DNA from: an uncultured Thermoplasmata archaeon
Lineage (GTDB): Archaea; Thermoplasmatota; Thermoplasmata; Lutacidiplasmatales; UBA184
Reading direction: 5' to 3'
Assembly: GCA_963771555.1 (NCBI GenBank)
Contig: CAVYTM010000001.1
Location: 633,064 to 697,063 of the forward strand
DNA length: 64,000 bases
The position numbers and the translations under genes were made by a program. Shown here piece by piece: positions 750 through 41,696 of this stretch (position 1 is the stretch's first letter; every line of letters begins with the position of its first letter). Below the pieces are notes generated by a model. The model was not told where the DNA came from. It made no database searches and worked only from the letters and a program-made list of their open reading frames with translations.

Positions 750-3700
750 ATGAACGCGCACTTCAGCGGAGGCGACATGCGTACGAGGGAGCGGCCGCAC
801 CATTCGAAGCCCCGGTCCGGCCTCCCGCTCGGCCGACTGGTCCTTGTCGTCGCTATCACCTTCGCGATGATCGTCCTGCCCGCCGGCGGACTGGCCTCCC
901 TCGGATCGTCCCCTTCGCCGCCCGGCCACGCCGCCGCCACCCCTGGGGCGACGCCCTCTTCCCGGATGACGCAACCGTGGGCGAATCCTCCGGTCCATAT
1001 TCACCGGCTTGGAGGGGTCGTTCCGGAATCGGTCAATCCGACCGCGCTCTACTCCACCGAACCCGCGCCGATGGGAATCGCCGATTTCGGCATCGGGCAA
1101 AGTGGCGGTCCGTATACCTACTCCACGTCGGAGTTCCTCGGGAATTTCACCTGGCAGAAGCTCACGCTTTCCGGCTCGGAAGGGACCTCGTTCTCCGACC
1201 AGCTGAACGTGGTGCTCCGGTTCGTGCAGGGGGGGACCACCTTCGCCTACTGGATCCAGGATGTCGCGTTCATGGACAGCGCCACTGGCGACCTTTCCTT
1301 CGAGAACAACATTTGGAACTTCAGCAACACGAACGGGTGTCTTTCGCCCTCGGACGTCAGCGGTAACGGGACGGTATACCCTTACTCGGGTTGTCAAGGG
1401 TACTACGCCGTAGGCTCCACCACTCAGCCCGGGGCTTTCGAAGTGATGCCATCGCCGGGGAACTTTCAGCTCTTGGTCCGCTCCTACCTATCGACCGGTG
1501 ACGTTCCGGAGGTCGCTTTCGAGTATCGCGACGGAGTCACCAGCTGGTACGTTACCTACGACAATGTCGTGTGGCCCTGGGCCGCCCATCCGTCCGCGGA
1601 CGACAACTTCCTCGTGGACGGCACGCAGTACAACCCGATCGGTCTGTTCTACGATGCGGAACTCGGGATTGGCGGGCCGGGAGGCGGTTCGGCCACGGTG
1701 GCCGAGGACGAGACCCACGCGAGCTCTCAACTGTTGTATTGGAACGGCCACAACTTCCAGGCCCCCTTGGCGGCCTGGAACTTTGGCAGCAATACCGCCG
1801 AAGCCGTCAGCAACATCCAATCGATCTGGAGTGCCTCTACGGGGGGGGTTCCGCTGACCATTCAGCTGAACGGGACGACCCGAAACGCGAGCCCCGACCG
1901 AGCGTACGACCAGAGCCGGGTGGGATTCCTGAACGTGTCGGCTCCCGCCGTTTCGGCCGGGACGGTGGCCCTAGGGAGTGTCGACTGGAACTTCGTCGGG
2001 GACGAAGCCAATCTGACCCTCGATCCCGGAACGTACCCGGTCTGGGTGAATTCCTCCGGGAGCTCGGTCAGCCTCGGTGAGTGCACCATCGTCGCCGGGA
2101 GCACGCTCAATGCGGACACCACCACGGGATGCGGTCCCAGCACGACCGTTCCCAAGGCAACGCCGGGCAAGGCGGACGTGGGTCAGTCCGTCACCTTCCG
2201 ATCCACGGTCGAGAACGCGGGGTCCGGCGGAGACACGTTCACCTGGAACGTCGCACCCGGAGGGCTCGGCTGTGCGAGCTCGACGACGACCACTCTCACG
2301 TGCACTCCGGTCGATCCGGGCACGTACCGGATCAACCTTACCATCGAGGATTCTCTCGGGAACACCTCCACGAGCGCTACCCTCTCCTTCGCCGTCTCGT
2401 CGGACCCGAGCGCCGCGACTCCTTCGTCGAGTCGACCGACCGTTGAAACCGGAGGGTCGGTCACCTTCTCCGAATCGGTCACCGGGGGCGATTCCCCGTA
2501 CGCGTACGCTTGGAGCGGCCTCCCCACCCCCTGTACGGGAACCTCCGGTCCTTCCCCCGCCTGCACGCCCAGCGTTCCCACGACCTACACGGTCTCGGTC
2601 ACCGTCACCGACGCGAACGACTATCGCTCCGTGAGCGGGGGCCTGAGTTACACGGTGCGGGCCGGTCCCTCCCCTTCCGTTCCCGCCTCGTCGCCTTCCG
2701 GGGGGGTCGACGTCGGCGAGCTGGTGAACTTCTCGACGATCGTGACCGGAGGTTCGGGCGCGTACAGCTATCGATGGCACGGGTTGCCCACCGGTTGCGT
2801 TTCAGCCAATCAATCGAAAGTGAGTTGCCGGCCCTCCCTGTCGGGGCCGTTCAACATCTCCGTCACCGTGACCGACACCGGGCTCGGCAACACGACGAGC
2901 GGGTCGCTATCGTACTCGGTAGATGCCGACCCGGCGGTCACTCTCGTTGCTCCGACCCGCACCGTCGACGCCGGGCTGTCCGCAGTGTTCCGCGCGGTGG
3001 CCAGCGGAGGTTCGGGGGAGTACCAGTATCTCTGGTCCGGTCTGCCTCTCGGTTGTTCGAGCTCGGGGTCCGCCACGGACTCGTGCGTGCCTTCGGCAGG
3101 GGGCAATTTCTCGGTCACCGTCACGGTCACGGACTCGAACGGTGGGAGTGCGACGAGCGACGTGCTTGAGTACCGCGTGTACAGCGAGCCGACGGTGACG
3201 GCTCCGAACGCCTCGGAGTCCTCCGCGGACCTGGGACAGTCGGTCAATCTCACGACCGCGGCGAGCGGAGGGTCGGGCGGATACACCTACGTTTGGTTCG
3301 GCCTGCCCCTCGGCTGCGCCAGTGCAAACACGAGCTCGGTCTCTTGCCTCGCGACGTCCCCCGGCAACTACTCCGTCCAGGTCAATGTCACGGACACCAA
3401 CGGGGTTACCGTCACGAGCCACGTCCGGTCGTTTCGCGTCTGGGTGGATCCGTCGGTGAGTTCGTTCGTCGCCGCGCCGGGCGGCTTGCTCGAGGGGTCG
3501 GGCGTCACCCTTTCGGTCGCGATCTCCGGCGGTTCCGGTCCGTTCACCTTCAGCTACTCGGGACTTCCTTCGGGATGCGCCCCTGTGAACCGCTCGACGC
3601 TTTCGTGCACGCCCACCGAGACGGGGACCTTCACGGTGAACGTGACGGTCACGGATGCGAACGGTTGGAGAACGACGGCCACCACGGTGGTTACCGTCAA

Positions 3701-20608: not shown

Positions 20609-23600
20609 TTGGGGTCCGTATCGTCGTCCCGCCTCACCCGCATCCTCCAAGAAAAGGCCGAAGCGCTGAAGAAACAGCGGCAAACGGCCGAAGCGACGCT
20701 GAAGGATATCGACGATCAGATCGCGATGCTGGACCAGCTCGGCATCGCTCCGCCGGAAGCGCACGAACGCCAAGTGGCCCTGCGCGAGCTCGCCCGCCGC
20801 GCCGACTGGAACGGCGTGGAGAGTCAGTCCAAGGCCATGACCGATTACCTCTCGAAGACCGTTCCCACGACCATCCAGGAACGTCGAACCCGGACGGCCG
20901 AATCGGTGCGCCGGTTCTCCGGCCTCGGGCTCGTGGTCCCGGCGGAGGTCAACACGGAGCTCGCCGCGCTCGCCCATCCTCCTGAGGGCGAAGCGTGGTC
21001 GGCGACCGTGGCGCGGCTCGCTCACGTGGAAGAGGCGCTCCACACGTCGGAGATGGCCCACGTCAATGAGGTCCGGGAGCGAGCCCTCGCGGTCGCCACC
21101 TGGGCGGGCCTGACCGGGGCCCGTCGGAGCGAGTTCGAAAAGCGTCTCGACGACGCGCTGCTCCCCGTCAAGGAGGACCGTCTCGCCGAAGCGTTCGAGG
21201 GGGTGGACCGACTGCTCCGGACCGGCCTCCCCGAATCCGCCGGCCGCCGCCAGAAGGTCCAGGACGAGGGCACGCGGCTCGTCGCGGCGGCCAAGGAGTT
21301 CGGCGCCCCGACCTCGCATCTGGAAGCGGCGCTCACGGCGGGGGCCGACGCGGCTCCGGACCGGTGGCCCGACGTCGTCCCCACGGCCGAAGTCGCGATC
21401 CGGGAGGTGGGCGAAGCGCTCCGCGAGCGCTGCGTCCAGATCCTCGAGGCGCTGCGCACCTCCCTCGATTCGACCCGGGAGTACGGGTGGACCCCTCCTC
21501 CGCTCGCCTCGCCGTCGACGACGCCTTGTCCCGCATTCGAACTTCACCCGCACTCGAGATCGGTCCGATCTTCCTCGAGGCCCGTCGGGCCGCCGAGGAG
21601 CCGATCGTCACCGTCGTCGCCGGACTTCTCGACGAGGCCCGGCCCCGGATCGCGGACGCCCGTCGATTGGGCCGCGACCCCAGCGAAGTGTTCGCCGCGA
21701 TGAACCGGGCGCGCGAGGCGCTTCGCCTCAAGATCTACTCGGAGGCCTTCGCCGCGAGCCAAGAGGCCCTCGACAAGGTCAGCCGGCTCACGGACGAGCT
21801 CGACACCGCGCGCGACGAGCTCCAATCGCTCGAGGAGATGGCCGCTCGATTCCGAAAGACCGGCTTCTCGGTCGAACCGTTCGACCCCTCGCTCATCCGC
21901 ATCCGAGCTTCGCTCGACCGGGCCGAAGTGACGCAGGCCCGAGAACTGCTGAAGGACACGGTCGTCCACCTCGGGCGCGAAGCCCTCCAGTTCTTCGCCC
22001 AGCGCTGGGCGGGCCTCGACAAGGCCCGAGATTACGCGAGGGAACGCCAATTCCTCTCCCCCGACGCCGACCGGGACATGAACGAAGCACGCGAGCTTCT
22101 CGACAAGGGCGAGCTCGCGGAGAGCGCCGAGCGGATCTCCCGCGCCGAGACGGAGCTCCGCCGGGCGGCGACACCGTATGTGGCGCGCCGCGTGGAAGAG
22201 ATGGAGCAGGGACTTTCCGATATTCCGGACGAGGCGTTGGTCGCCCCGGTCCGCCGACTCCTCGCGGACGCGGACGTGACCCTACGGGTCAAGCAGGACC
22301 TGATGGGCTCGATCGAAAGCCTGCGCCGGGCCGAACGTGAGTTCGGCGCAGTCGTCGCGGCGCACGCCTCCGCGCTGGTCGAGATCCTCGAGGCCGAGCG
22401 CGAGGTGCTCGAGACGATGGGCGGGCCGAGCGACGAGATCCAGCGGCAGATCGACGAGGTCCAGCAGATCTTCAACATGGGGGACTTCGTCAAGGCGTCG
22501 CGGGCCTCGCAGGAGATCCGCACCCGCGCCCAGCAGCAGCAGCTCCTGAGGAGCGAGGAGTCGGTCTCGCACGCCAAGCTCTCGCTCGTCGAGCTCGAGA
22601 CGATGGGGTTCGACCTCACGAAGTTCCGTGGGCAGCTCGACGAAGCGCAGAGCGCGGCACGCGCGGCCCGATTCGCGGACGCCTACCGACTCGCGACGCG
22701 ACTCGAAGAGTCCGCGCTGCGGGCCCGAGCCGCCGGACAAGCGATCCTCGAGGGGATCGCGCGCACGCAGGAAACCCTTGGACGCCTTCGCGAAGGCGGG
22801 GTCGACCCGAATCCGTTCTACGAGCCCCTGCGCAACGTTCGCCTCGCGTTCCAGAGCCTGGACTTCGACCGGGCCCACGCGACGCTCGAAGAGGTCGAGC
22901 ACAAGCTCGGGGACGAGGCCGCGCGAGGCGAAACGACCCGGCTCCTCGGGGACGTGGAACACCTGATCGAGGACGGCCGCCGGCTCTCCTCCCCGATGGA
23001 ACCGTTCCAGGCCCGCCTGGAGCAGCTTCGCACCGAAGCCGCGACCGCTCCTCCCGAGGCGACCCGGACCGGCGCCCGGCTCCTCCACGAGGAGCTCAAC
23101 GCGATCATCCGGCCGATCCTGGACGAGAACCTTCGGGCCCTCGAACGCGACTTGGACATTGCGCGCTCCGCCGGGGTCGACCTCGACAAGATCCTCTTAC
23201 CGCTCGGTGAAGCGCGCCGAAGGATCGCCCTTCCGGTGCCGATCGGCGCGGCGGCGCTGCTCGATGCTGCGCGCGCGGAATTCGTGTCGACGAGGGGCTT
23301 CGTCGAACACGCCGAACGGGTGGCCAAGCGGGCCCGCGAAGCCCTGGCCGAAGCGGACCTTCTCCACGTCCACACTCCCTCGCTGCGAGAACAGATGGAA
23401 CGGATCGACAAGCTGCTCGCGGAGCGCCAGTACGCCCGCGTGGTCGAGCTCGGTGGTCCCCTCGAGCGGGAGCTGATCCAAGCGACCTACCAACACGTAT
23501 CGAAGACCTTGGCGGGGTTCCAGGCGACCGTGACCCGGCTGCGCAAGGAAGGCATCGACACTTCGCTCGCCGAGAATCTCCTCCATCGGGCCCGCATGGC

Positions 23601-25086
23601 GCTCGACGAAGGACGCCCCGTCGAGGCCCTTCAGCTCGCGGGACAGAGCGAAGGCGAGCTCGAACGAGCGGACCTCCAGCGGCGCATCGCGGAAGGCTCG
23701 CTCGCGGCCGCCGAGGCATCCATCGGACGGGCCACCGTGGACGGCATATTGTCTCCCGTCGCCACCGAAGAGCTCGCCGCTGCGAAGCTGGCGTTCCAGG
23801 GCCACGAGTACCCCCCGGTCCTCGAGCACTCCCTCCTCGCCTCCGACGCGCTTGGTATCGCGCGCGAGGGTCACCGCCGAGCTCGGGACGCCCTTGCGGC
23901 GGCGGAACGACAGATTCGCGAGGCGTCCGACGTGGGCGCCGACACCGAGCCCGCGAGCCTGCGAGCCGGCGAAGCTCGCCAGCAGATCGACGCAGGGCTC
24001 TATCCCGACGCGACCCGAGTTGCTCGGGAAGCCACCGAGGAGGCTCGCTGGGCGATCGAGAGGCTCTTCGCGGGCCCGATCGGTGAGCTGCGCCGGAAAC
24101 TCGATTCGGCCCGGCACGAGGGTCTCGGTGCCGAGGTCGACCCGATCGAGGCGATCCTCGGTGAGGCCGAGACCGCCCTCCGCGCCCGGGATTGGGGCCG
24201 CGTCAAGGAGGCCATCGCTCGGGGCGAGGCCGCTTGTGTCCGGATCATCGACGAGATCGTCGACGGCCGGTGGCGCGAAGTCGAGGCGGAGTATGTGCGC
24301 ACTTCCGACGGCCCGCCGGCCGAGGTCGACCGGAGGTCGGAGGTCCGAGTCCAGCTGACGGCGCTCCGCGACCACCACGACTACGGTGCCGCGCTCGTCC
24401 TCGTACGCTCCGAACTCGAGCTCGCCCGCCAACGCCGCCGCGAGGACATCGAGCGACAGATGGCCGAGTTCAAAGATCGCCTCTGGGTCGGTGAGCGACT
24501 CGCCCTCGACACGACCCCGGTCATGCAAACCTTCAGCGAAGCCCGGGTGGCCCTCGATGCCGGCCGTCCGGACGAGGCCGAGGCACTACTGGCCCGGGCG
24601 ACGAGCGCCCTCGAGCCGACGGTCCGCGAGCCGTACACCCGTCGGTGGCGCGAGCTTCAGACGGAGATCAATTTTGCCCAGGAGGGCCTGCACGTCAAGG
24701 TCGGGCCGATCCGGGAACGACTGCAGCAGGTCGAGGAGCTCGACCGTTCGGGCCAACTGCTCGACGCGGCCCGCCTCTTGCTCAAGACCGAGGAGGAGCT
24801 CAACCTGCGAAAGTCGCTCCATCGGGAGCTGATGAATCTCCACTACCTCATCGACGCCGCGCTCACGAAGGCCCACGAACTTCGGGTCGATACGTCCGAG
24901 GCACGGGCGCTGCTCGCGGAGTCCCTGAGGCTGCGAGAGACCGACTATTCCGCCGCGCTCGAGAAGGCGCGCGAGGCCCTACGCAAGTTGCAGAGCGCGG
25001 GTGTCGGAATGGTCGAGGGTGTCGTACCGCCGTCGCCGGCGGCGAACCCGTTCTGGCCTTTCCGACGGCCTCCGTCCGAGCCGTAA
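20609..25086 (+). CDS. very large (~1490 aa if joined) alpha-helical repeat protein of unknown function; frame interrupted at ~21485-21487
   Basis: ORFs 20609-21703 and 21364-25086 overlap by 340 nt in different frames. Adding one G after GAG-TAC-GGG (21485-87) gives the continuous ...LDSTREYGVDPSSARLAVDDALSRI.... The body has at least 13 ~80-aa helical modules anchored by A-L-x-x-G-[DR]-[YFW]-x-x-A (e.g. LRARDWGRVKEAIARGEAA, LDAGRPDEAEALLARATSA, LRETDYSAALEKAREAL). TTG start. Confidence 0.6.
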
Positions 25087-25090
25087 TCGC

Positions 25091-25549
25091 CTACGCGGAC
25101 GACAAGTAGCTGGTGCCGACGGGCGTCGGCGGAAGCCCCGCCGGCCCCCGCGGGGGTCCGAGAGGAAGGCGGTCGTACTCCACCGTGTGCTTGATACCTC
25201 TCCGACGGAGAAGGGTCGATACCTGCTCCGTGATCTGCACGACCTCCTGGCATCGGGCGGGCTTCGCAAAGTAGAACTCGGCGCGTCGTTCGTCCGCGAT
25301 CGGGAAGATGAGGCGAAGGCCAAACGCATCCTGGCGGTTGTATCCCACCGGCTTTCGGTTGCCCTTGAGGTCCCTCAGGTTCTCGTCGAGGAGAACCTCC
25401 GGGAGGAGAGGGTCCGACTCCTTGACGAACGGACGGTTCATTTCGACGACCCGTTTGTGGATCTCGGGGTAGACGCGGACGAGGTCGCGGTACGACCGTT
25501 TCGGGTCCAAGAGGATGTGCCCGCTGCGCGCCTTGACCGGGGGAGTCAC
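25091..25549 (-). CDS. hypothetical protein (152 aa)
   Basis: Protein-like composition (DLVRVYPEIHKRVVEMNRPFVKESDPLLPEVLLDENLRDLKGNRKPVGYNRQDAFGLRLIFPIADERRAEFYFAKPARCQEVVQITEQ). The antisense ORF 25001-25576 and the overlapping Arg-rich ORF 24945-25679 were judged less likely. Function not recognised. Confidence 0.35.
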   Translation of the reverse strand: MTPPVKARSGHILLDPKRSYRDLVRVYPEIHKRVVEMNRPFVKESDPLLPEVLLDENLRDLKGNRKPVGYNRQDAFGLRLIFPIADERRAEFYFAKPARCQEVVQITEQVSTLLRRRGIKHTVEYDRLPLGPPRGPAGLPPTPVGTSYLSSA

Positions 25550-25790
25550 GACCAGGAATCGAACCCGGGGTCTTAGGGGCTTCGGGGTCCTCCCGCGACG
25601 CCCCGAACCACGGAAGTGGGGTCGATTTGGCGGTCCCCCTTCGGTACGTGACGTTCTCGGACCTGCGGATGAAATCCACCGCTCGGATGGCGTTTGGTCA
25701 CTACTTTGGGGATGGGAGAGACGTGGGATCGCTAGTGGTTGGTCCCGGCGTCGAAAGGCTCAAAGAGGCTGCCCGCTACCGACTCCGGGC

Positions 25791-25892
25791 GCTCCCGTAG
25801 TCTAGTGGTCAAGGATAGAGGCCTCTCGAGCCTCTGACGCGGGTTCAAAACCGGCCGGCAACGACCGGCTGGGGAAACTCCCGCCGGGAGCA
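25791..25892 (+). tRNA. tRNA-Glu (anticodon CUC) with a ~29-nt non-canonical intron in the T-loop/T-stem junction
   Basis: Acceptor GCTCCCG/CGGGAGC plus discriminator A (archaeal tRNA-Glu-like GCTCC...GGAGCA). D-arm GTCT-AGTGGTCAA-GGAT. Anticodon arm GAGGC-CTCTCGA-GCCTC (U33, CUC, R37). T-stem GCGGG, loop TTCAAAA. The 3' T-stem CCCGC is contiguous with the 3' acceptor only after skipping ~25851-25879 (intron contains the hairpin GCCGG-CAACGA-CCGGC). No intron-less fold satisfies the acceptor pairing. Confidence 0.65.
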
Positions 25893-26040
25893 CCTCGCCC
25901 GCCCTTCCGCGCTGACCGAGAACCCGCCCGAGGGCGGTCACTCTCGAAGACACGGGGTTCCCGGCGCCCCAATCCGTGCAATCGCCCCGACCTTCCCCAA
26001 GGGTGAGGTCCTTATCTGTGGGTCGCCGTTCGAACTATCC

Positions 26041-26775
26041 GTGGTAAACGATCCTCCCGCCGAGGAGCTCTTTCCGGGAGGCTTCGGCAAACCCTCCTCG
26101 GTCTTCATCTCGGGGAGCAGCCGCTCGTTGCTGAAGTGGTTCGCGTTCGCCTCGCTCGCACCGTACACCTCTCGGGTCTACTGGACCGACGTTCGCCTGC
26201 CGGGAGAGATTCTCGACCCTCTCGACCCGATGTCCATCCATGCCATTCCGGAAGAATCGGTGTACGTTCTCCTGCCCCGGGACCTTTCGCCGGACGACCA
26301 AGGAGCCCATCAGGCCGAAGTGGCCGCGGCCACCATGCTCCGGTCCGATGCCAGCGCGAACTCGATTGAGGGTCTCGTGGAGTTCCTCCGCATGCCGAGC
26401 CACGCCCAGAAGCTGATCTCGGCCACGGGCCGTCCGGGCGCACCCTCGATTCTTGTTACGGCCAATGCCCAGCGCCTCGCCTCGGCGTATCCGCAAGATC
26501 GCATTGCTCCGCTGATGCGCACTATGTTAGAATCCGGAACTTGCCAGGTCGCCCTTTGGGCCGAAGCCCCCACGACATTCACATCGATCTTCGATATCAT
26601 TCTCCACGTGGAAGGAAACGGTTCGGCGGACTGGCGCAACGCGACCGTGCGATGCGAGAAGGGAATCTCCGCCGGACCGCTCGCGTCCGGACGGACCACC
26701 CGCCTCTCCGAGATAGGGTCGATCTCCGCGATACTCGAGAAGTCGGTCCCGACCCCCCCGAGGGGCCCGGGGTAA
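26041..26775 (+). CDS. conserved hypothetical protein, paralog family member 2 (unknown function)
   Basis: 244 aa; paralog of 8826-9539 (shared motifs GSSRxLLxW, YWTDVRLxxExLDPLDP, and EFLxxPxHxQ further along). GTG start. Confidence 0.6.
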   Translation: MVNDPPAEELFPGGFGKPSSVFISGSSRSLLKWFAFASLAPYTSRVYWTDVRLPGEILDPLDPMSIHAIPEESVYVLLPRDLSPDDQGAHQAEVAAATMLRSDASANSIEGLVEFLRMPSHAQKLISATGRPGAPSILVTANAQRLASAYPQDRIAPLMRTMLESGTCQVALWAEAPTTFTSIFDIILHVEGNGSADWRNATVRCEKGISAGPLASGRTTRLSEIGSISAILEKSVPTPPRGPG

Positions 26776-40084: not shown

Positions 40085-40635
40085 ACCCTTCGGTCGGGGA
40101 CCCCGAACCGTCCCACACGGAGATCGTACGCGTCCTTCTGGACGCCGGAGCCGTCCGCTTCGGCGACTTCACCCTCGCCTCGGGAGAGAAGAGCGACGTC
40201 TACATCGACGTGAAGCGCGCGTGGACGGACCCGAAGCGGCTCGACCTCCTGGCCCGAGCGCTCGCGCATCGGGTCGGCTCGACCGACCGGCTTGCGGGCA
40301 TGGAGCTCGGAGCCGTCCCGCTCGTCGTCGCGACCGCGCTCCGGACGGGTCACTCGTACGTCGTGCTTCGAAAGGCAACCAAGGAGCACGGGACCCGTCA
40401 GGCGTTCGAGGGCGACATCTCGCCCGGACTCCACGTCCTCCTGATCGAGGACGTGACCACGACCGGCGGTAGCACGCTCCGGTCGGTCGAGATCGTGCGA
40501 GGGGCCGGGGGCGTCGTCGACCGCGTCCTCGTCGTGGTCGACCGGGAAAGCGGCGCCGCCGCGCATCTCGCGGCGGTGGGGATCCGGATCGAACCGCTCG
40601 TCACGCTTTCCGAGCTCCGCGGGGCTCGTCCGTGA
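40081..40635 (+). CDS. pyrE: orotate phosphoribosyltransferase
   Basis: PRPP-binding motif VLLIEDVTTTGGS; type I PRTase fold length. GTG start overlaps the carS stop (GTGA). Confidence 0.85.
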   Translation: MNPSVGDPEPSHTEIVRVLLDAGAVRFGDFTLASGEKSDVYIDVKRAWTDPKRLDLLARALAHRVGSTDRLAGMELGAVPLVVATALRTGHSYVVLRKATKEHGTRQAFEGDISPGLHVLLIEDVTTTGGSTLRSVEIVRGAGGVVDRVLVVVDRESGAAAHLAAVGIRIEPLVTLSELRGARP

Positions 40636-41696
40636 GCGGGGCGCTCCAGGCAGACGGAACGGTTCGGTTCGACGAACCGTCCGAAGCCGGCCAGGTCTAC
40701 GGAAAGGGGTTCTTCGGAACGCTCACGTCGAGCGGCGGACTCTCGCTCGACCGTTACGAGGCGGTCTACCTCTCCGAGATGGGTCGGGTCGACCTTCGGG
40801 GAACGGCCGGTCGAGCCGTCGCCTGGCCGACGGTGTTCCGCCGCGCGGTACGGGCCGACCCCGGCTTCGCGGTTCGATACCTCGTCTACCGGGACCTCCG
40901 GCAGCGAGGATACGTCGTGCGCGCGAGTCCCCCACCGGTCGCGTTCACCGTCCTTCCGCGGGGAGGGGTTCTGCACAAGACCCCATCCCGGTACTGGGTG
41001 GAGGCGATCAGCGAACGGGTCCCCTTCGACCTCGCCCGGCTCTTCGACCTCGCCGAACGGGCCCAGAGCGCGAAGAAGCTGCTTCTGCTCGGCCTCGTGG
41101 ACGAGGAGTCCGACCTCACGTACTACCGGGTCCGCCGGCCCACACCGACCGGCGCGCTCCCCTCGAGGAAGCTCGCGCAACCGGCCGAGGGGTGGCTTTC
41201 CGAGGACCGGGTGACGGTGCACGGCTCCGGGTTGGCCACCGAGCTCGGCAAGGAGCTCGCGTACGGGAGCCGGATCGGCGACCGTCTCGAGCTCAGCCTC
41301 CTCGAGGCCGCGTACCTTTGTTCCGAGGGCCAGCTCACCCTGCGGGATTCGAAGAGCGGTCGCGCGGTCTCGCTCGAACGATTGGAGCGACGCGCGCGCC
41401 GGATGGTTCCGCTCTTCTTCGAGCGGCTGGCCGCGTACCGGGAGTTGCGAGGGCGTTCCCTGGTCGTCAAGACGGGGTTCAAGTACGGCGCCCATTTTCG
41501 GGCGTACCCGCGCAGCCCCGAACACTCGCACGCGCGCTATCTCGTCCAGGCCGCCCCGTCCACGCACGTCGCGTCGTGGCCGGAAGTGGCCGGCGGCGTC
41601 CGGGTGGCCCAGGGGGTCCGCAAAGAGTTCCTGGTCGCCGGAGTGCGCCCGGACGCCCAGGTCAAGTTCCTCTCGCTCGAGAGAGTTCGACCGTAG
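40632..41696 (+). CDS. endA: tRNA-splicing endonuclease, two-domain (duplicated) form
   Basis: Catalytic domain VVKTGFKYGAHFRAYPRSPEHSHARYLV, plus a degenerate N-terminal repeat (YLVYRDLRQRGYVV). 354 aa. GTG start overlaps the pyrE stop. Confidence 0.85.
   Translation: MSGALQADGTVRFDEPSEAGQVYGKGFFGTLTSSGGLSLDRYEAVYLSEMGRVDLRGTAGRAVAWPTVFRRAVRADPGFAVRYLVYRDLRQRGYVVRASPPPVAFTVLPRGGVLHKTPSRYWVEAISERVPFDLARLFDLAERAQSAKKLLLLGLVDEESDLTYYRVRRPTPTGALPSRKLAQPAEGWLSEDRVTVHGSGLATELGKELAYGSRIGDRLELSLLEAAYLCSEGQLTLRDSKSGRAVSLERLERRARRMVPLFFERLAAYRELRGRSLVVKTGFKYGAHFRAYPRSPEHSHARYLVQAAPSTHVASWPEVAGGVRVAQGVRKEFLVAGVRPDAQVKFLSLERVRP

What the first reader, a model, noticed from the sequence alone, without database searches (positions are those of the whole stretch)
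25791..25892. tRNA-Glu(CUC) requiring a ~29-nt intron at a non-canonical T-arm position
The 5' acceptor, D-arm, anticodon arm and 5' T-stem plus T-loop (GCGGG-TTCAAAA) are contiguous and canonical. The matching 3' T-stem (CCCGC), 3' acceptor (CGGGAGC) and discriminator A lie ~29 nt further on. The intervening sequence (about 25851-25879) forms its own hairpin, GCCGG-CAACGA-CCGGC. Introns at position 59/60-type T-loop sites are known only from a few archaeal lineages, and their presence is informative about the lineage and its splicing endonuclease (the two-domain endA is encoded at 40632-41696).
Basis: partly seen in the sequence, partly recalled or inferred. Interest (0 to 1): 0.6.

Follow-up and report, generated by a model that had tools for sequence, protein, structure and literature searches.

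The report
T-loop intron in archaeal tRNA-Glu gene
The window's only tRNA gene, tRNA-Glu(CUC) of a soil Thermoplasmata archaeon, is interrupted in its T-loop by a 29-base protein-spliced intron that more than 100 related species keep at the same site; this is a known kind of intron in a lineage and enzyme setting where reviews say it does not occur.

Summary
Window 25791-25892 (+) is a tRNA-Glu(CUC) gene split between tRNA positions 59 and 60 by a 29-nt intron, 25850-25878. ARAGORN and Rfam call an 'uninterrupted' tRNA by reading into the intron, and this is an artefact: 44.5 bits with five non-standard pairs. The in-silico spliced 73-mer is base-for-base identical to uninterrupted genes in outgroup genomes, which score 68.2 bits with none.

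The junctions form a bulge-helix-bulge (BHB) motif. The T stem is followed by a 3-nt bulge, a central helix (U54-A, U55-A, C56-G, A57.G), a second 3-nt bulge and an 8-bp intron hairpin.

Among 116 complete orthologous genes from Thermoplasmata MAGs, 108 carry a 26-32-nt insert at exactly this site, with 107 distinct sequences. All eight hairpin pairs covary. The bases opposite U54, U55 and C56 are always compatible with pairing. Intron presence separates cleanly from absence at a syntenic locus.

A two-repeat (alpha'2-type) EndA with an intact catalytic repeat lies at 40632-41696. It has no insert at the crenarchaeal-loop (CSL) site.

Position 59/60 introns are already known, so this is a new member of a known kind. 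Splicing itself is inferred, because no RNA data were available.

The parts
25753..25767 (+). Conserved upstream element GAAAGGCTCAAAGAG, at -38 to -24 from the tRNA start. Probably a BRE/TATA-like promoter of the tRNA gene.
   Evidence: At least 70% conserved at its core positions across 114 orthologous loci. It is the only match in the window, even with 3 mismatches allowed. Promoter function is inferred.
25791..25849 (+). 5' exon, tRNA positions 1-59: acceptor 5' strand, D arm, anticodon arm (CUC), 4-nt variable loop, T-stem 5' strand and T-loop bases U54-A59.
   Evidence: The sequence is identical in 92 of 116 orthologues. Some variants carry a compensatory change in the anticodon stem.
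25850..25878 (+). 29-nt BHB intron between positions 59 and 60, read as A-CCGGCCGG-CAACGA-CCGGCUGG-GGAA-AC.
   Evidence: Removing it gives a 73-mer identical to the uninterrupted genes in L014, L026 and L092. 108 of 116 orthologues have a 26-32-nt insert at this site, with 107 distinct sequences.
25844..25847 (+). Exon strand of the central BHB helix (U54 U55 C56 A57). It pairs with 25873-25876.
   Evidence: Across 101 distinct sequences, U54 faces A or G in 101, U55 faces A or G in 101, and C56 faces G in 101. A57 faces U in 21 and another base, mostly G, in 80 (base counts).
25848..25850 (+). 5' three-base bulge (A58 A59 | A). The predicted 5' cleavage is after 25849.
   Evidence: Geometry. 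The cleavage position follows from the BHB rule (my recollection of the published motif) and agrees with the intron-less orthologues.
25851..25872 (+). Intron hairpin, the outer helix h' of the BHB: 8 bp (25851-25858 with 25865-25872) and loop CAACGA.
   Evidence: All 8 pairs show changes on both sides and 87% of cells are paired. The covariation score is 0.240 against 0.090 in shuffles (0 of 500 reach it), and slid registers give 32-60% paired. RNAalifold predicts the helix independently.
25873..25876 (+). Intron strand of the central helix (GGAA).
   Evidence: This is the only strongly conserved stretch of the intron. Across 108 sequences the four positions read G82/U23/A2/C1, G108, A98/G10 and A95/G13.
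25877..25879 (+). 3' three-base bulge (A C | U60). The predicted 3' cleavage is after 25878.
   Evidence: 86 of 108 sequences have 'AC' followed by the invariant T.
25879..25892 (+). 3' exon, positions 60-73: U60, T-stem 3' strand CCCGC, acceptor 3' strand CGGGAGC and discriminator A. CCA is not encoded.
   Evidence: The trailer begins CCT in the window, and only 19 of 116 loci encode CCA.
40632..41696 (+). endA: a 354-aa tRNA-splicing endonuclease made of two tandem repeats (alpha'2 type). It is the presumed enzyme that removes the intron.
   Evidence: Pfam PF01974 and PF02778 each match twice. PDB matches include 5x89, 1r0v and 1a79. The C-terminal repeat aligns 2-169 to 4-171 of M. jannaschii EndA with only a 2-residue gap, and the motifs FRAY, HSHARY and VRK align with that enzyme's FRLY, EHSVY and VRK. 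There is no insert at the CSL site.

Best explanation
This is a functional tRNA-Glu(CUC) gene carrying a 29-nt archaeal bulge-helix-bulge (BHB) intron between T-loop positions 59 and 60.

**Structure of the precursor.**
- The acceptor and T stems form across the intron.
- T-loop bases U54-A57 pair with the intron's GGAA. In the window this gives three Watson-Crick pairs plus an A.G.
- That helix is flanked by two 3-nt bulges: A58 A59 | A on the 5' side and A C | U60 on the 3' side.
- The rest of the intron folds into an 8-bp hairpin.

**Proposed processing.**
- The dimeric two-repeat EndA encoded 15 kb downstream recognises this pseudo-symmetric motif.
- It cuts after the second base of each bulge, that is after 25849 and after 25878.
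- An RtcB-type ligase joins the exons and probably circularises the intron.
- This gives a 73-nt tRNA with the canonical T-loop UUCAAAU, to which CCA is then added.
- The T-loop is sequestered in the precursor, so T-loop/D-loop tertiary folding can only follow splicing.

**Evolution.** The intron was most likely gained once in the ancestor of a large clade of soil and peat Thermoplasmata. Since then it has drifted freely in sequence under a structural constraint only.

**Shown and inferred.**
- Shown: gene anatomy, BHB geometry, covariation, identity of the spliced product to uninterrupted orthologues, and presence of EndA.
- Inferred: cleavage, ligation, circularisation and the order of maturation steps.
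For: - **Stems closed across the insert.** Perfect 7-bp acceptor and 5-bp T stems form only across it. RNAalifold on 55 orthologues predicts the same two stems and the intron hairpin independently.
- **Spliced product.** It is called tRNA-Glu(ctc) and is identical to the uninterrupted genes in L014, L026 and L092. Those score 68.2 bits on RF00005 with no non-standard pair. The unspliced reading scores 44.5 bits with five.
- **Conservation of the site.** 108 of 116 genome-derived orthologues and 59 metagenome contigs carry an insert at exactly this site. Exons are invariant or change compensatorily. Intron interiors are about 56% identical.
- **Covariation.** All 8 hairpin pairs have double changes, and no shuffle reaches the observed score. 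Partners of U54 and U55 are only A or G, and the partner of C56 is always G.
- **Orthologous locus.** A 152-aa neighbouring gene is at least 70.9% identical to the window's in every intron-bearing locus. It is at most 66.1% identical in the five syntenic intron-less loci.
- **EndA.** It is present with the Y/H/K motifs aligned.
- **Precedent.** 59/60 is an established non-canonical intron position (PMC4090602; ARMAN-2 tRNA-Cys in PMC5829648).
Against: - **No RNA evidence.** Splicing is inferred.
- **Imperfect central helix.** In the window and about 76% of orthologues it is closed by an A57.G mismatch rather than a fourth standard pair. The motif is therefore not a textbook strict hBHBh'.
- **Thermodynamics.** Folding leaves the central helix open: -23.1 kcal/mol for the BHB against -26.0 for the minimum-free-energy fold.
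- **Enzyme type.** The alpha'2 enzyme of A. fulgidus 'hardly cleaved' a BHB intron placed in a D-loop unless the crenarchaeal loop was grafted in (PMC3241643). Reviews state that Euryarchaeota with alpha4 or alpha'2 enzymes have introns only at 37/38 (PMC4090602). This EndA has no such loop.
- **Ligase.** No RtcB gene was looked for.
Confidence: 0.88

Rival explanations
1. The gene is an uninterrupted tRNA-Glu ending at about 25863-25866, as ARAGORN and Rfam report. On this reading the downstream complement is a coincidence.
For: ARAGORN calls 25790-25866. Rfam RF00005 calls 25791-25863 at 44.5 bits, above its gathering score of 29.
Against: - That reading has five non-standard pairs in the T and acceptor stems.
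- Its 3' half lies in sequence that differs in 107 of 108 orthologues.
- The real 3' half is invariant downstream.
- The spliced form scores 68.2 bits.
Confidence: 0.01
2. The insert is never removed. The mature tRNA keeps an extra hairpin protruding from the T-loop between positions 59 and 60, as a structural expansion.
For: - Positions 59 and 60 point outward from the tRNA elbow (my own knowledge of tRNA structure), so an insertion there is sterically conceivable.
- The hairpin is conserved in structure.
- No RNA data exclude this reading.
Against: - The only sequence-conserved part of the insert is the strand complementary to U54-C56. It sits exactly 2 nt before the exon, giving two 3-nt bulges 4 positions apart.
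- That geometry is what EndA needs. It would also destroy the T-loop/D-loop contacts of a mature tRNA.
- Outgroup species use the identical tRNA without the insert.
Confidence: 0.05
3. The gene is a decaying pseudogene, disrupted by an insertion. GAG codons would then be read by another tRNA.
For: A tRNA-Glu(UUC) could in principle read GAG by wobble. Only 64 kb of the genome is visible.
Against: - Exons are invariant in 92 of 116 species-level genomes, and the changes that do occur include compensatory ones.
- The upstream element is conserved.
- The genome is about 67% G+C. I expect that to favour GAG codons, but I did not measure codon use.
- The insert keeps BHB geometry in over 160 independent sequences.
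Confidence: 0.02
4. The intron is real but sits at 60/61 (25851-25879). The T-loop would then be UUCAAAA.
For: A 73-nt product with those boundaries is also called tRNA-Glu by ARAGORN.
Against: - Uninterrupted orthologues read UUCAAAU.
- The first intron base varies freely: T 45, G 32, A 30, C 1. A 60/61 junction would therefore give different T-loops in different species.
- The symmetric 3-nt bulges place the cuts at 59/60.
Confidence: 0.03

Closest known systems
[quoted passage not shown]
   Same: - Same insertion point in the T-loop and same protein-dependent splicing logic, with the exon-intron junctions in bulges.
- Metagenome contigs from other archaea (L143 and L151 at GC 0.42, L181 at GC 0.52) carry 59/60 introns with the same ...GGGGAAAC|U design.
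   Different: - The ARMAN-2 example is a relaxed hBH motif cut by an epsilon2 enzyme with a specificity loop (PMC5829648).
- The crenarchaeal and thaumarchaeal cases go with (alpha-beta)2 enzymes and usually with many other introns.
- Here the motif is nearly strict, the enzyme is alpha'2 type without any such loop, and the host is a Thermoplasmata (euryarchaeal) clade.
Canonical 37/38 hBHBh' tRNA introns of Euryarchaeota, for example Haloferax tRNA-Trp and Methanocaldococcus tRNAs
   Same: - Two 3-nt bulges separated by a 4-position helix.
- An outer helix made of exon-exon pairing.
- Cleavage after the second bulge base.
- Strict-type EndA.
   Different: - The outer exon helix is the T stem stacked on the acceptor stem, not the anticodon stem.
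- The central helix uses T-loop bases 54-57 instead of anticodon-loop bases.
- In most members it is closed by A.G.
alpha'2 homodimeric EndA (A. fulgidus 1R0V/2GJW, T. acidophilum 2OHC, Ferroplasma)
   Same: - A single polypeptide with two repeats.
- A degenerate N-terminal repeat and a catalytic C-terminal repeat with the Tyr/His/Lys motifs.
- No CSL, ASL or L3-type insert.
   Different: - It is 354 aa against 289-313 aa for the solved enzymes.
- It forms its own 50%-identity cluster, at most 49% identical to any other representative.
- The A. fulgidus enzyme handled a D-loop BHB intron poorly in vitro (PMC3241643), whereas this one must handle a T-loop intron in vivo if the model is right.

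Membership tests
Archaeal BHB (bulge-helix-bulge) tRNA intron | Two 3-nt bulges on opposite strands, separated by a 4-bp helix. | tested here: met
   - The bulges are 25848-25850 and 25877-25879, separated by four positions.
- Three of those positions are always standard pairs.
- The fourth (A57) is A-U in 21 of 101 distinct sequences and mostly A.G in the rest, including the window.
- The feature is met in geometry, with one non-standard pair in the window itself.
Archaeal BHB (bulge-helix-bulge) tRNA intron | Flanking helices h and h' on both sides of the motif. | tested here: met
   h is the invariant 5-bp T stem, continued by the 7-bp acceptor stem. h' is the 8-bp hairpin, in which all 8 pairs covary.
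Archaeal BHB (bulge-helix-bulge) tRNA intron | Excision at the bulges restores a canonical cloverleaf tRNA. | tested here: met
   The 73-mer is identical to the uninterrupted orthologues. It scores 68.2 bits on RF00005 with no non-standard pair.
Archaeal BHB (bulge-helix-bulge) tRNA intron | The genome encodes a tRNA-splicing endonuclease. | tested here: met
   The ORF at 40632-41696.
Archaeal BHB (bulge-helix-bulge) tRNA intron | The intron is actually excised and the exons are ligated in vivo (RtcB). | not testable with these tools
   No RNA data were available. RtcB was not searched for.
59/60 class of non-canonical intron positions | The junction lies between T-loop nucleotides 59 and 60. 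| tested here: met
   - The 5' exon is 59 nt long.
- Uninterrupted orthologues read UUCAAA-U.
- The first intron base is variable, which excludes 60/61.
alpha'2-type EndA | Two tandem EndA repeats in one polypeptide, with only the C-terminal one carrying the catalytic Tyr/His/Lys. | tested here: met
   - Both Pfam domains match twice.
- The C-terminal FRAY, HSHARY and VRK motifs align to the M. jannaschii triad region.
- The N-terminal repeat has no KYG...FRxY motif in the alignment to 5x89.
alpha'2-type EndA | The protein functions as a homodimer. | not testable with these tools
   The oligomeric state was not predicted. A second endA-like gene elsewhere in the genome cannot be excluded from 64 kb.
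Broad-specificity EndA ((alpha-beta)2 or epsilon2 with CSL, ASL or L3 loops) | A specific loop inserted in the catalytic unit. The CSL lies at the site equivalent to A. fulgidus residues 174-178. | tested here: not met
   - The window reads YGSRIGDRLELSL, the same length as A. fulgidus YGSEKGDLVTLSL.
- None of 120 clade homologues has an insert there.
- Basic residues at this site are common across the whole family.
Uninterrupted tRNA (the ARAGORN and Rfam call) | A contiguous cloverleaf with paired T and acceptor stems. | tested here: not met
   The contiguous reading has five non-standard pairs, and its 3' half is not conserved.

The most novel reading that the evidence does not exclude
A whole order-level clade of soil Thermoplasmata has kept a T-loop (59/60) intron in its tRNA-Glu(CUC) gene throughout its diversification. 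It relies on an alpha'2 EndA that lacks every known specificity loop.

If confirmed, this would show that strict-type endonucleases do process non-canonical positions in vivo, and that they accept an A.G-closed central helix.

It would also raise the possibility that the intron is kept by selection. One option is that it breaks the T-arm attachment site used by integrating elements. Another is that it forces splicing to precede T-loop folding and modification. The alternative is plain inertia.
Probability: 0.2. Interest if true: 0.55.

Novelty: new member of a known kind. Interest (0 to 1): 0.42.

Why it matters
- **Exception to a textbook rule.** Reviews say that Euryarchaeota with alpha4 or alpha'2 endonucleases carry tRNA introns only at 37/38 (PMC4090602). 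This clade gives more than 160 natural substrate variants with which to test what an alpha'2 enzyme really requires.
- **Annotation.** ARAGORN and the Rfam tRNA model both return a plausible-looking but wrong 3' end for this gene in over 100 species. Counts and boundaries of tRNA-Glu in Thermoplasmata MAGs may therefore be wrong wherever a BHB-aware step is not used.
- **Clade marker.** Presence or absence of the intron at a syntenic locus cleanly marks a clade that includes Lutacidiplasmatales.

Tried and rejected
- **Anti-integration idea.** I searched IMG/VR for the uninterrupted T-arm plus 3' end as a possible viral attachment site and found 0 hits. A search for the intron end plus exon 2 gave one hit, which is a chance match inside a coding region with no tRNA. 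No integrase or other mobile-element gene lies next to the tRNA. The idea has neither support nor refutation.
- **Same intron in other tRNAs.** A metagenome scan for the same intron design next to a different T stem (position 63 not C) gave 0 hits. The positive control with C gave 65. Three of those are multi-intron tRNAs of other, lower-GC archaea, and three are chance matches. The pattern was very specific, so the null result is weak.
- **Other tRNAs near the orthologues.** ARAGORN with intron search on all loci gave only spurious long-intron calls in this GC-rich DNA. Nothing can be said about other tRNAs of these genomes.
- **EndA adaptation at the CSL site.** R214 and R218 are conserved within the clade. 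Basic residues at this site are common in the whole alpha'2 family, and there is no insert. They are not diagnostic.
- **Thermodynamic folding.** It does not predict the central helix. The evidence for that helix is comparative only.
- **Bacterial-type scan.** It found no promoter or terminator, as expected for an archaeon.
- **Literature.** Searches found no description of a T-loop intron in Thermoplasmata. The library is incomplete, and GtRNAdb could not be consulted.

Full report
**1. The observation**

Window 25791-25892 (+) reads GCTCCCG-TA-GTCT-AGTGGTCAA-GGAT-A-GAGGC-CTCTCGA-GCCTC-TGAC-GCGGG-TTCAAA, then 29 nt, then T-CCCGC-CGGGAGC-A.

- ARAGORN reports a tRNA-Glu(ctc) at 25790-25866. 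Rfam RF00005 reports a tRNA at 25791-25863 at 44.5 bits. Both take their 3' half from inside the insert.
- The Rfam alignment marks five non-standard pairs in the T and acceptor stems.
- The whole 102-nt stretch folds with the 7-bp acceptor stem and the 5-bp T stem closed across the insert, plus an 8-bp hairpin inside it (-51.1 kcal/mol).
- This is the only tRNA gene in the window.

**2. Exact boundaries and the splicing motif**

Read as a bulge-helix-bulge motif, the T stem (25839-25843 with 25880-25884) is the outer exon helix. The remaining elements are:

| Element | Coordinates |
|---|---|
| Central helix | U25844-A25876, U25845-A25875, C25846-G25874, A25847.G25873 |
| 5' bulge | A25848 A25849 A25850 |
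| 3' bulge | A25877 C25878 U25879 |
| Intron hairpin | 25851-25858 with 25865-25872 |

- The published BHB rule, recalled from memory, puts cleavage after the second base of each bulge. That gives an intron of 25850-25878 (29 nt) between tRNA positions 59 and 60, and a mature T-loop UUCAAAU.
- The spliced 73-mer is called tRNA-Glu(ctc) by ARAGORN.

**3. Comparative evidence**

All but two are titled Thermoplasmata or Lutacidiplasmatales MAGs, mostly from soil and peat. They include Candidatus Lutacidiplasma silvani; the other two are titled 'Methanobacteriota archaeon' (L010) and 'bacterium' (L092).

- Of 116 complete genes, 108 carry an insert of 26-32 nt at exactly the same point, with 107 different sequences. 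Eight are uninterrupted and read TTCAAAT-CCCGC.
- Three uninterrupted genes (L014, L026, L092) are identical over all 73 nt to the window's in-silico spliced product. They score 68.2 bits on RF00005 with no non-standard pair. Removing the intron therefore raises the score by 23.7 bits. tRNAscan-SE uses the same criterion to accept a non-canonical intron (PMC8450103).
- Exons are identical in 92 of 116 genes. The variants include the double changes A-U to G-C in the anticodon stem and C6-G67 to U-A in the acceptor stem, and single changes to G.U wobble pairs.
- Intron interiors are only about 56% identical between sequences of equal length.

**4. Covariation**

I anchored the alignment at both junctions (A1) and counted pairs.

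- All eight hairpin pairs show changes on both sides, and 87% of cells are paired.
- The covariation score is 0.240 against 0.090 in shuffles, and 0 of 500 shuffles reach it.
- Sliding the 3' partners by 1-3 columns drops pairing for the whole structure from 89% to 32-60%.
- In the central helix the exon strand cannot vary, so the intron strand is the informative one:
  - Opposite U54 it is A or G only.
  - Opposite U55 it is A or G only.
  - Opposite C56 it is always G.
  - Opposite A57 it is U in 21 of 101 distinct sequences, and otherwise mostly G.
- RNAalifold, run on a plain MAFFT alignment of 55 full-length genes, independently predicts the acceptor and T stems across the insert and the hairpin.
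- Thermodynamic folding alone leaves the A/U-rich central helix open: -23.1 kcal/mol for the explicit BHB against -26.0 for the minimum-free-energy fold. The evidence for that helix is therefore comparative.
- A few 32-nt introns fail the ungapped register, but by my hand inspection of the sequences they fold with a one-base bulge in the hairpin.

**5. An orthologous locus, and probably one gain**

- A conserved 152-aa ORF (window 25091-25549, minus strand, no Pfam hit) lies just upstream of the tRNA in 109 loci.
- In every intron-bearing locus with a hit it is at least 70.9% identical to the window's copy. In the five syntenic intron-less loci it is 58.9-66.1% identical.
- Intron-bearing loci share an upstream element GAAAGGCTCAAAGAG at -38 to -24 (window 25753-25767). 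Several intron-less loci have TTAAATA-type boxes instead.
- The simplest reading is one gain in the ancestor of the intron-bearing clade. A loss in the outgroup is not excluded.
- The closest species representative to the window is L039, at 82% nucleotide identity over 5.6 kb.
- A metagenome contig, L170, carries the identical intron.

**6. The enzyme**

- The ORF at 40632-41696 encodes a 354-aa protein with two copies each of the EndA N-terminal and catalytic domains.
- Its best solved relatives are the M. kandleri fusion construct 5x89 and the A. fulgidus alpha'2 enzyme.
- The C-terminal repeat aligns 2-169 to 4-171 of the M. jannaschii enzyme with only a 2-residue gap. FRAY, HSHARY and VRK align with that enzyme's FRLY, EHSVY and VRK, which contain the catalytic Tyr/His/Lys by my knowledge of that structure.
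- The site where the crenarchaeal specificity loop sits is A. fulgidus 174-178 (PMC3241643). Here it reads SRIGDR, the same length as the A. fulgidus sequence.
- None of 120 close homologues has an insert there. Basic residues at this site are common across the whole family.
- The clade's EndA is a single 50%-identity cluster, at most 49% identical to any other representative.
- endA is flanked by a phosphoribosyltransferase-domain ORF and trpA.

**7. Mechanism**

- Shown: the gene anatomy, the BHB geometry, its conservation and covariation, the identity of the predicted product to uninterrupted orthologues, and the presence of an EndA with a catalytic repeat.
- Inferred from established knowledge of archaeal tRNA splicing:
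  - The EndA dimer binds the pseudo-symmetric motif and cuts after A25849 and C25878.
  - An RtcB-type ligase joins the exons and circularises the intron.
  - CCA is added, since it is not encoded.
- Further inference:
  - U54-A57 are paired with the intron in the precursor, so the T-loop/D-loop interaction can form only after splicing.
  - The outer helix of the motif is the T stem stacked on the acceptor stem, a long regular helix. That resembles the anticodon-stem context of canonical introns. It may explain why a strict-type enzyme can use this site even though A. fulgidus EndA handled a D-loop BHB intron poorly (PMC3241643).

**8. Comparison with what is known**

- Position 59/60 is on the published list of non-canonical intron sites (PMC4090602). 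It is documented for ARMAN-2 tRNA-Cys, where the motif is a relaxed hBH cut by an epsilon2 enzyme (PMC5829648).
- My metagenome scan also picked up multi-intron tRNAs from lower-GC archaea with a 59/60 intron of the same ...GGGGAAAC|U design (L143, L151, L181).
- What differs here is the host and the enzyme. The host is a euryarchaeal Thermoplasmata clade, and its alpha'2 EndA has no specificity loop. The same review says this setting has introns only at the canonical position.
- I found no paper describing this intron. The Lutacidiplasmatales genome paper used tRNAscan-SE 2.0.5 but never mentions introns.
- The library is incomplete and GtRNAdb was not available, so prior annotation cannot be excluded.

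**9. Verdict**

This is a real and well-supported non-canonical BHB intron. It is a new member of a known kind, with moderate interest for three reasons:
- It is an exception to the rule linking enzyme type and intron position.
- It is an annotation trap.
- It is a clade marker.

Its maintenance by selection is untested. The viral attachment-site searches found nothing.

Noticed in passing
window 25753-25767 (+), and near 25776-25779: The element GAAAGGCTCAAAGAG lies 24-38 nt upstream of the tRNA, with a CTAC motif near -15. Both are conserved in nearly all intron-bearing orthologous loci, and the element is unique in the 64-kb window. It is probably a BRE/TATA-like promoter of unusual, G+C-rich form. 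Several intron-less outgroup loci have classic TTAAATA boxes instead.
   Followed up: partly
window 25091-25549 (-) and 21364-25086 (+): A 152-aa ORF with no Pfam family sits next to the tRNA in 109 related loci. A 1240-aa Ala/Arg/Glu-rich ORF is also syntenic, and its only Pfam hit (YfdX) is below the curated cutoff. Both are conserved genes of unknown function.
   Followed up: partly
L143 about 2970-3230 (+), L151 (-) strand, L181 (-) strand: These metagenome contigs of lower G+C (0.42 and 0.52) carry tRNA genes with several inserts. One of them is a 59/60 T-loop intron ending GGGGAAAC|U, like the one studied here. They probably come from Thaumarchaeota-like or other TACK archaea. I did not dissect the tRNAs.
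   Followed up: no
L092 (JAKBKR010000348.1): The contig is titled 'MAG: bacterium' but carries an archaeal tRNA-Glu(CUC). Its upstream sequence is the same as in the Thermoplasmata locus L026. The contig is probably mis-binned.
   Followed up: no
window 40632-41696 (+): All 120 listed close homologues of this EndA are at least 74% identical to it, and all but three are exactly 354 aa long. They collapse into one 50%-identity cluster, whose nearest other representatives are at most 49% identical. This is a distinct EndA subfamily, about 40-65 aa longer than the solved alpha'2 enzymes. By my arithmetic on the alignment ranges, most of the extra length is in the N-terminal repeat and linker.
   Followed up: partly
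all fetched loci and the window: With intron search switched on, ARAGORN reports many spurious tRNAs with introns of hundreds to thousands of bases in this DNA of 63-75% G+C. Two of them fall in the window, at 20792-21777 and 25542-26576.
   Followed up: yes
L170 (Ga0187860_1126704), 1033-1073: This JGI metagenome contig has an intron identical to the window's. It probably comes from the same or a very close organism, so its sample would be the place to look for RNA evidence.
   Followed up: no
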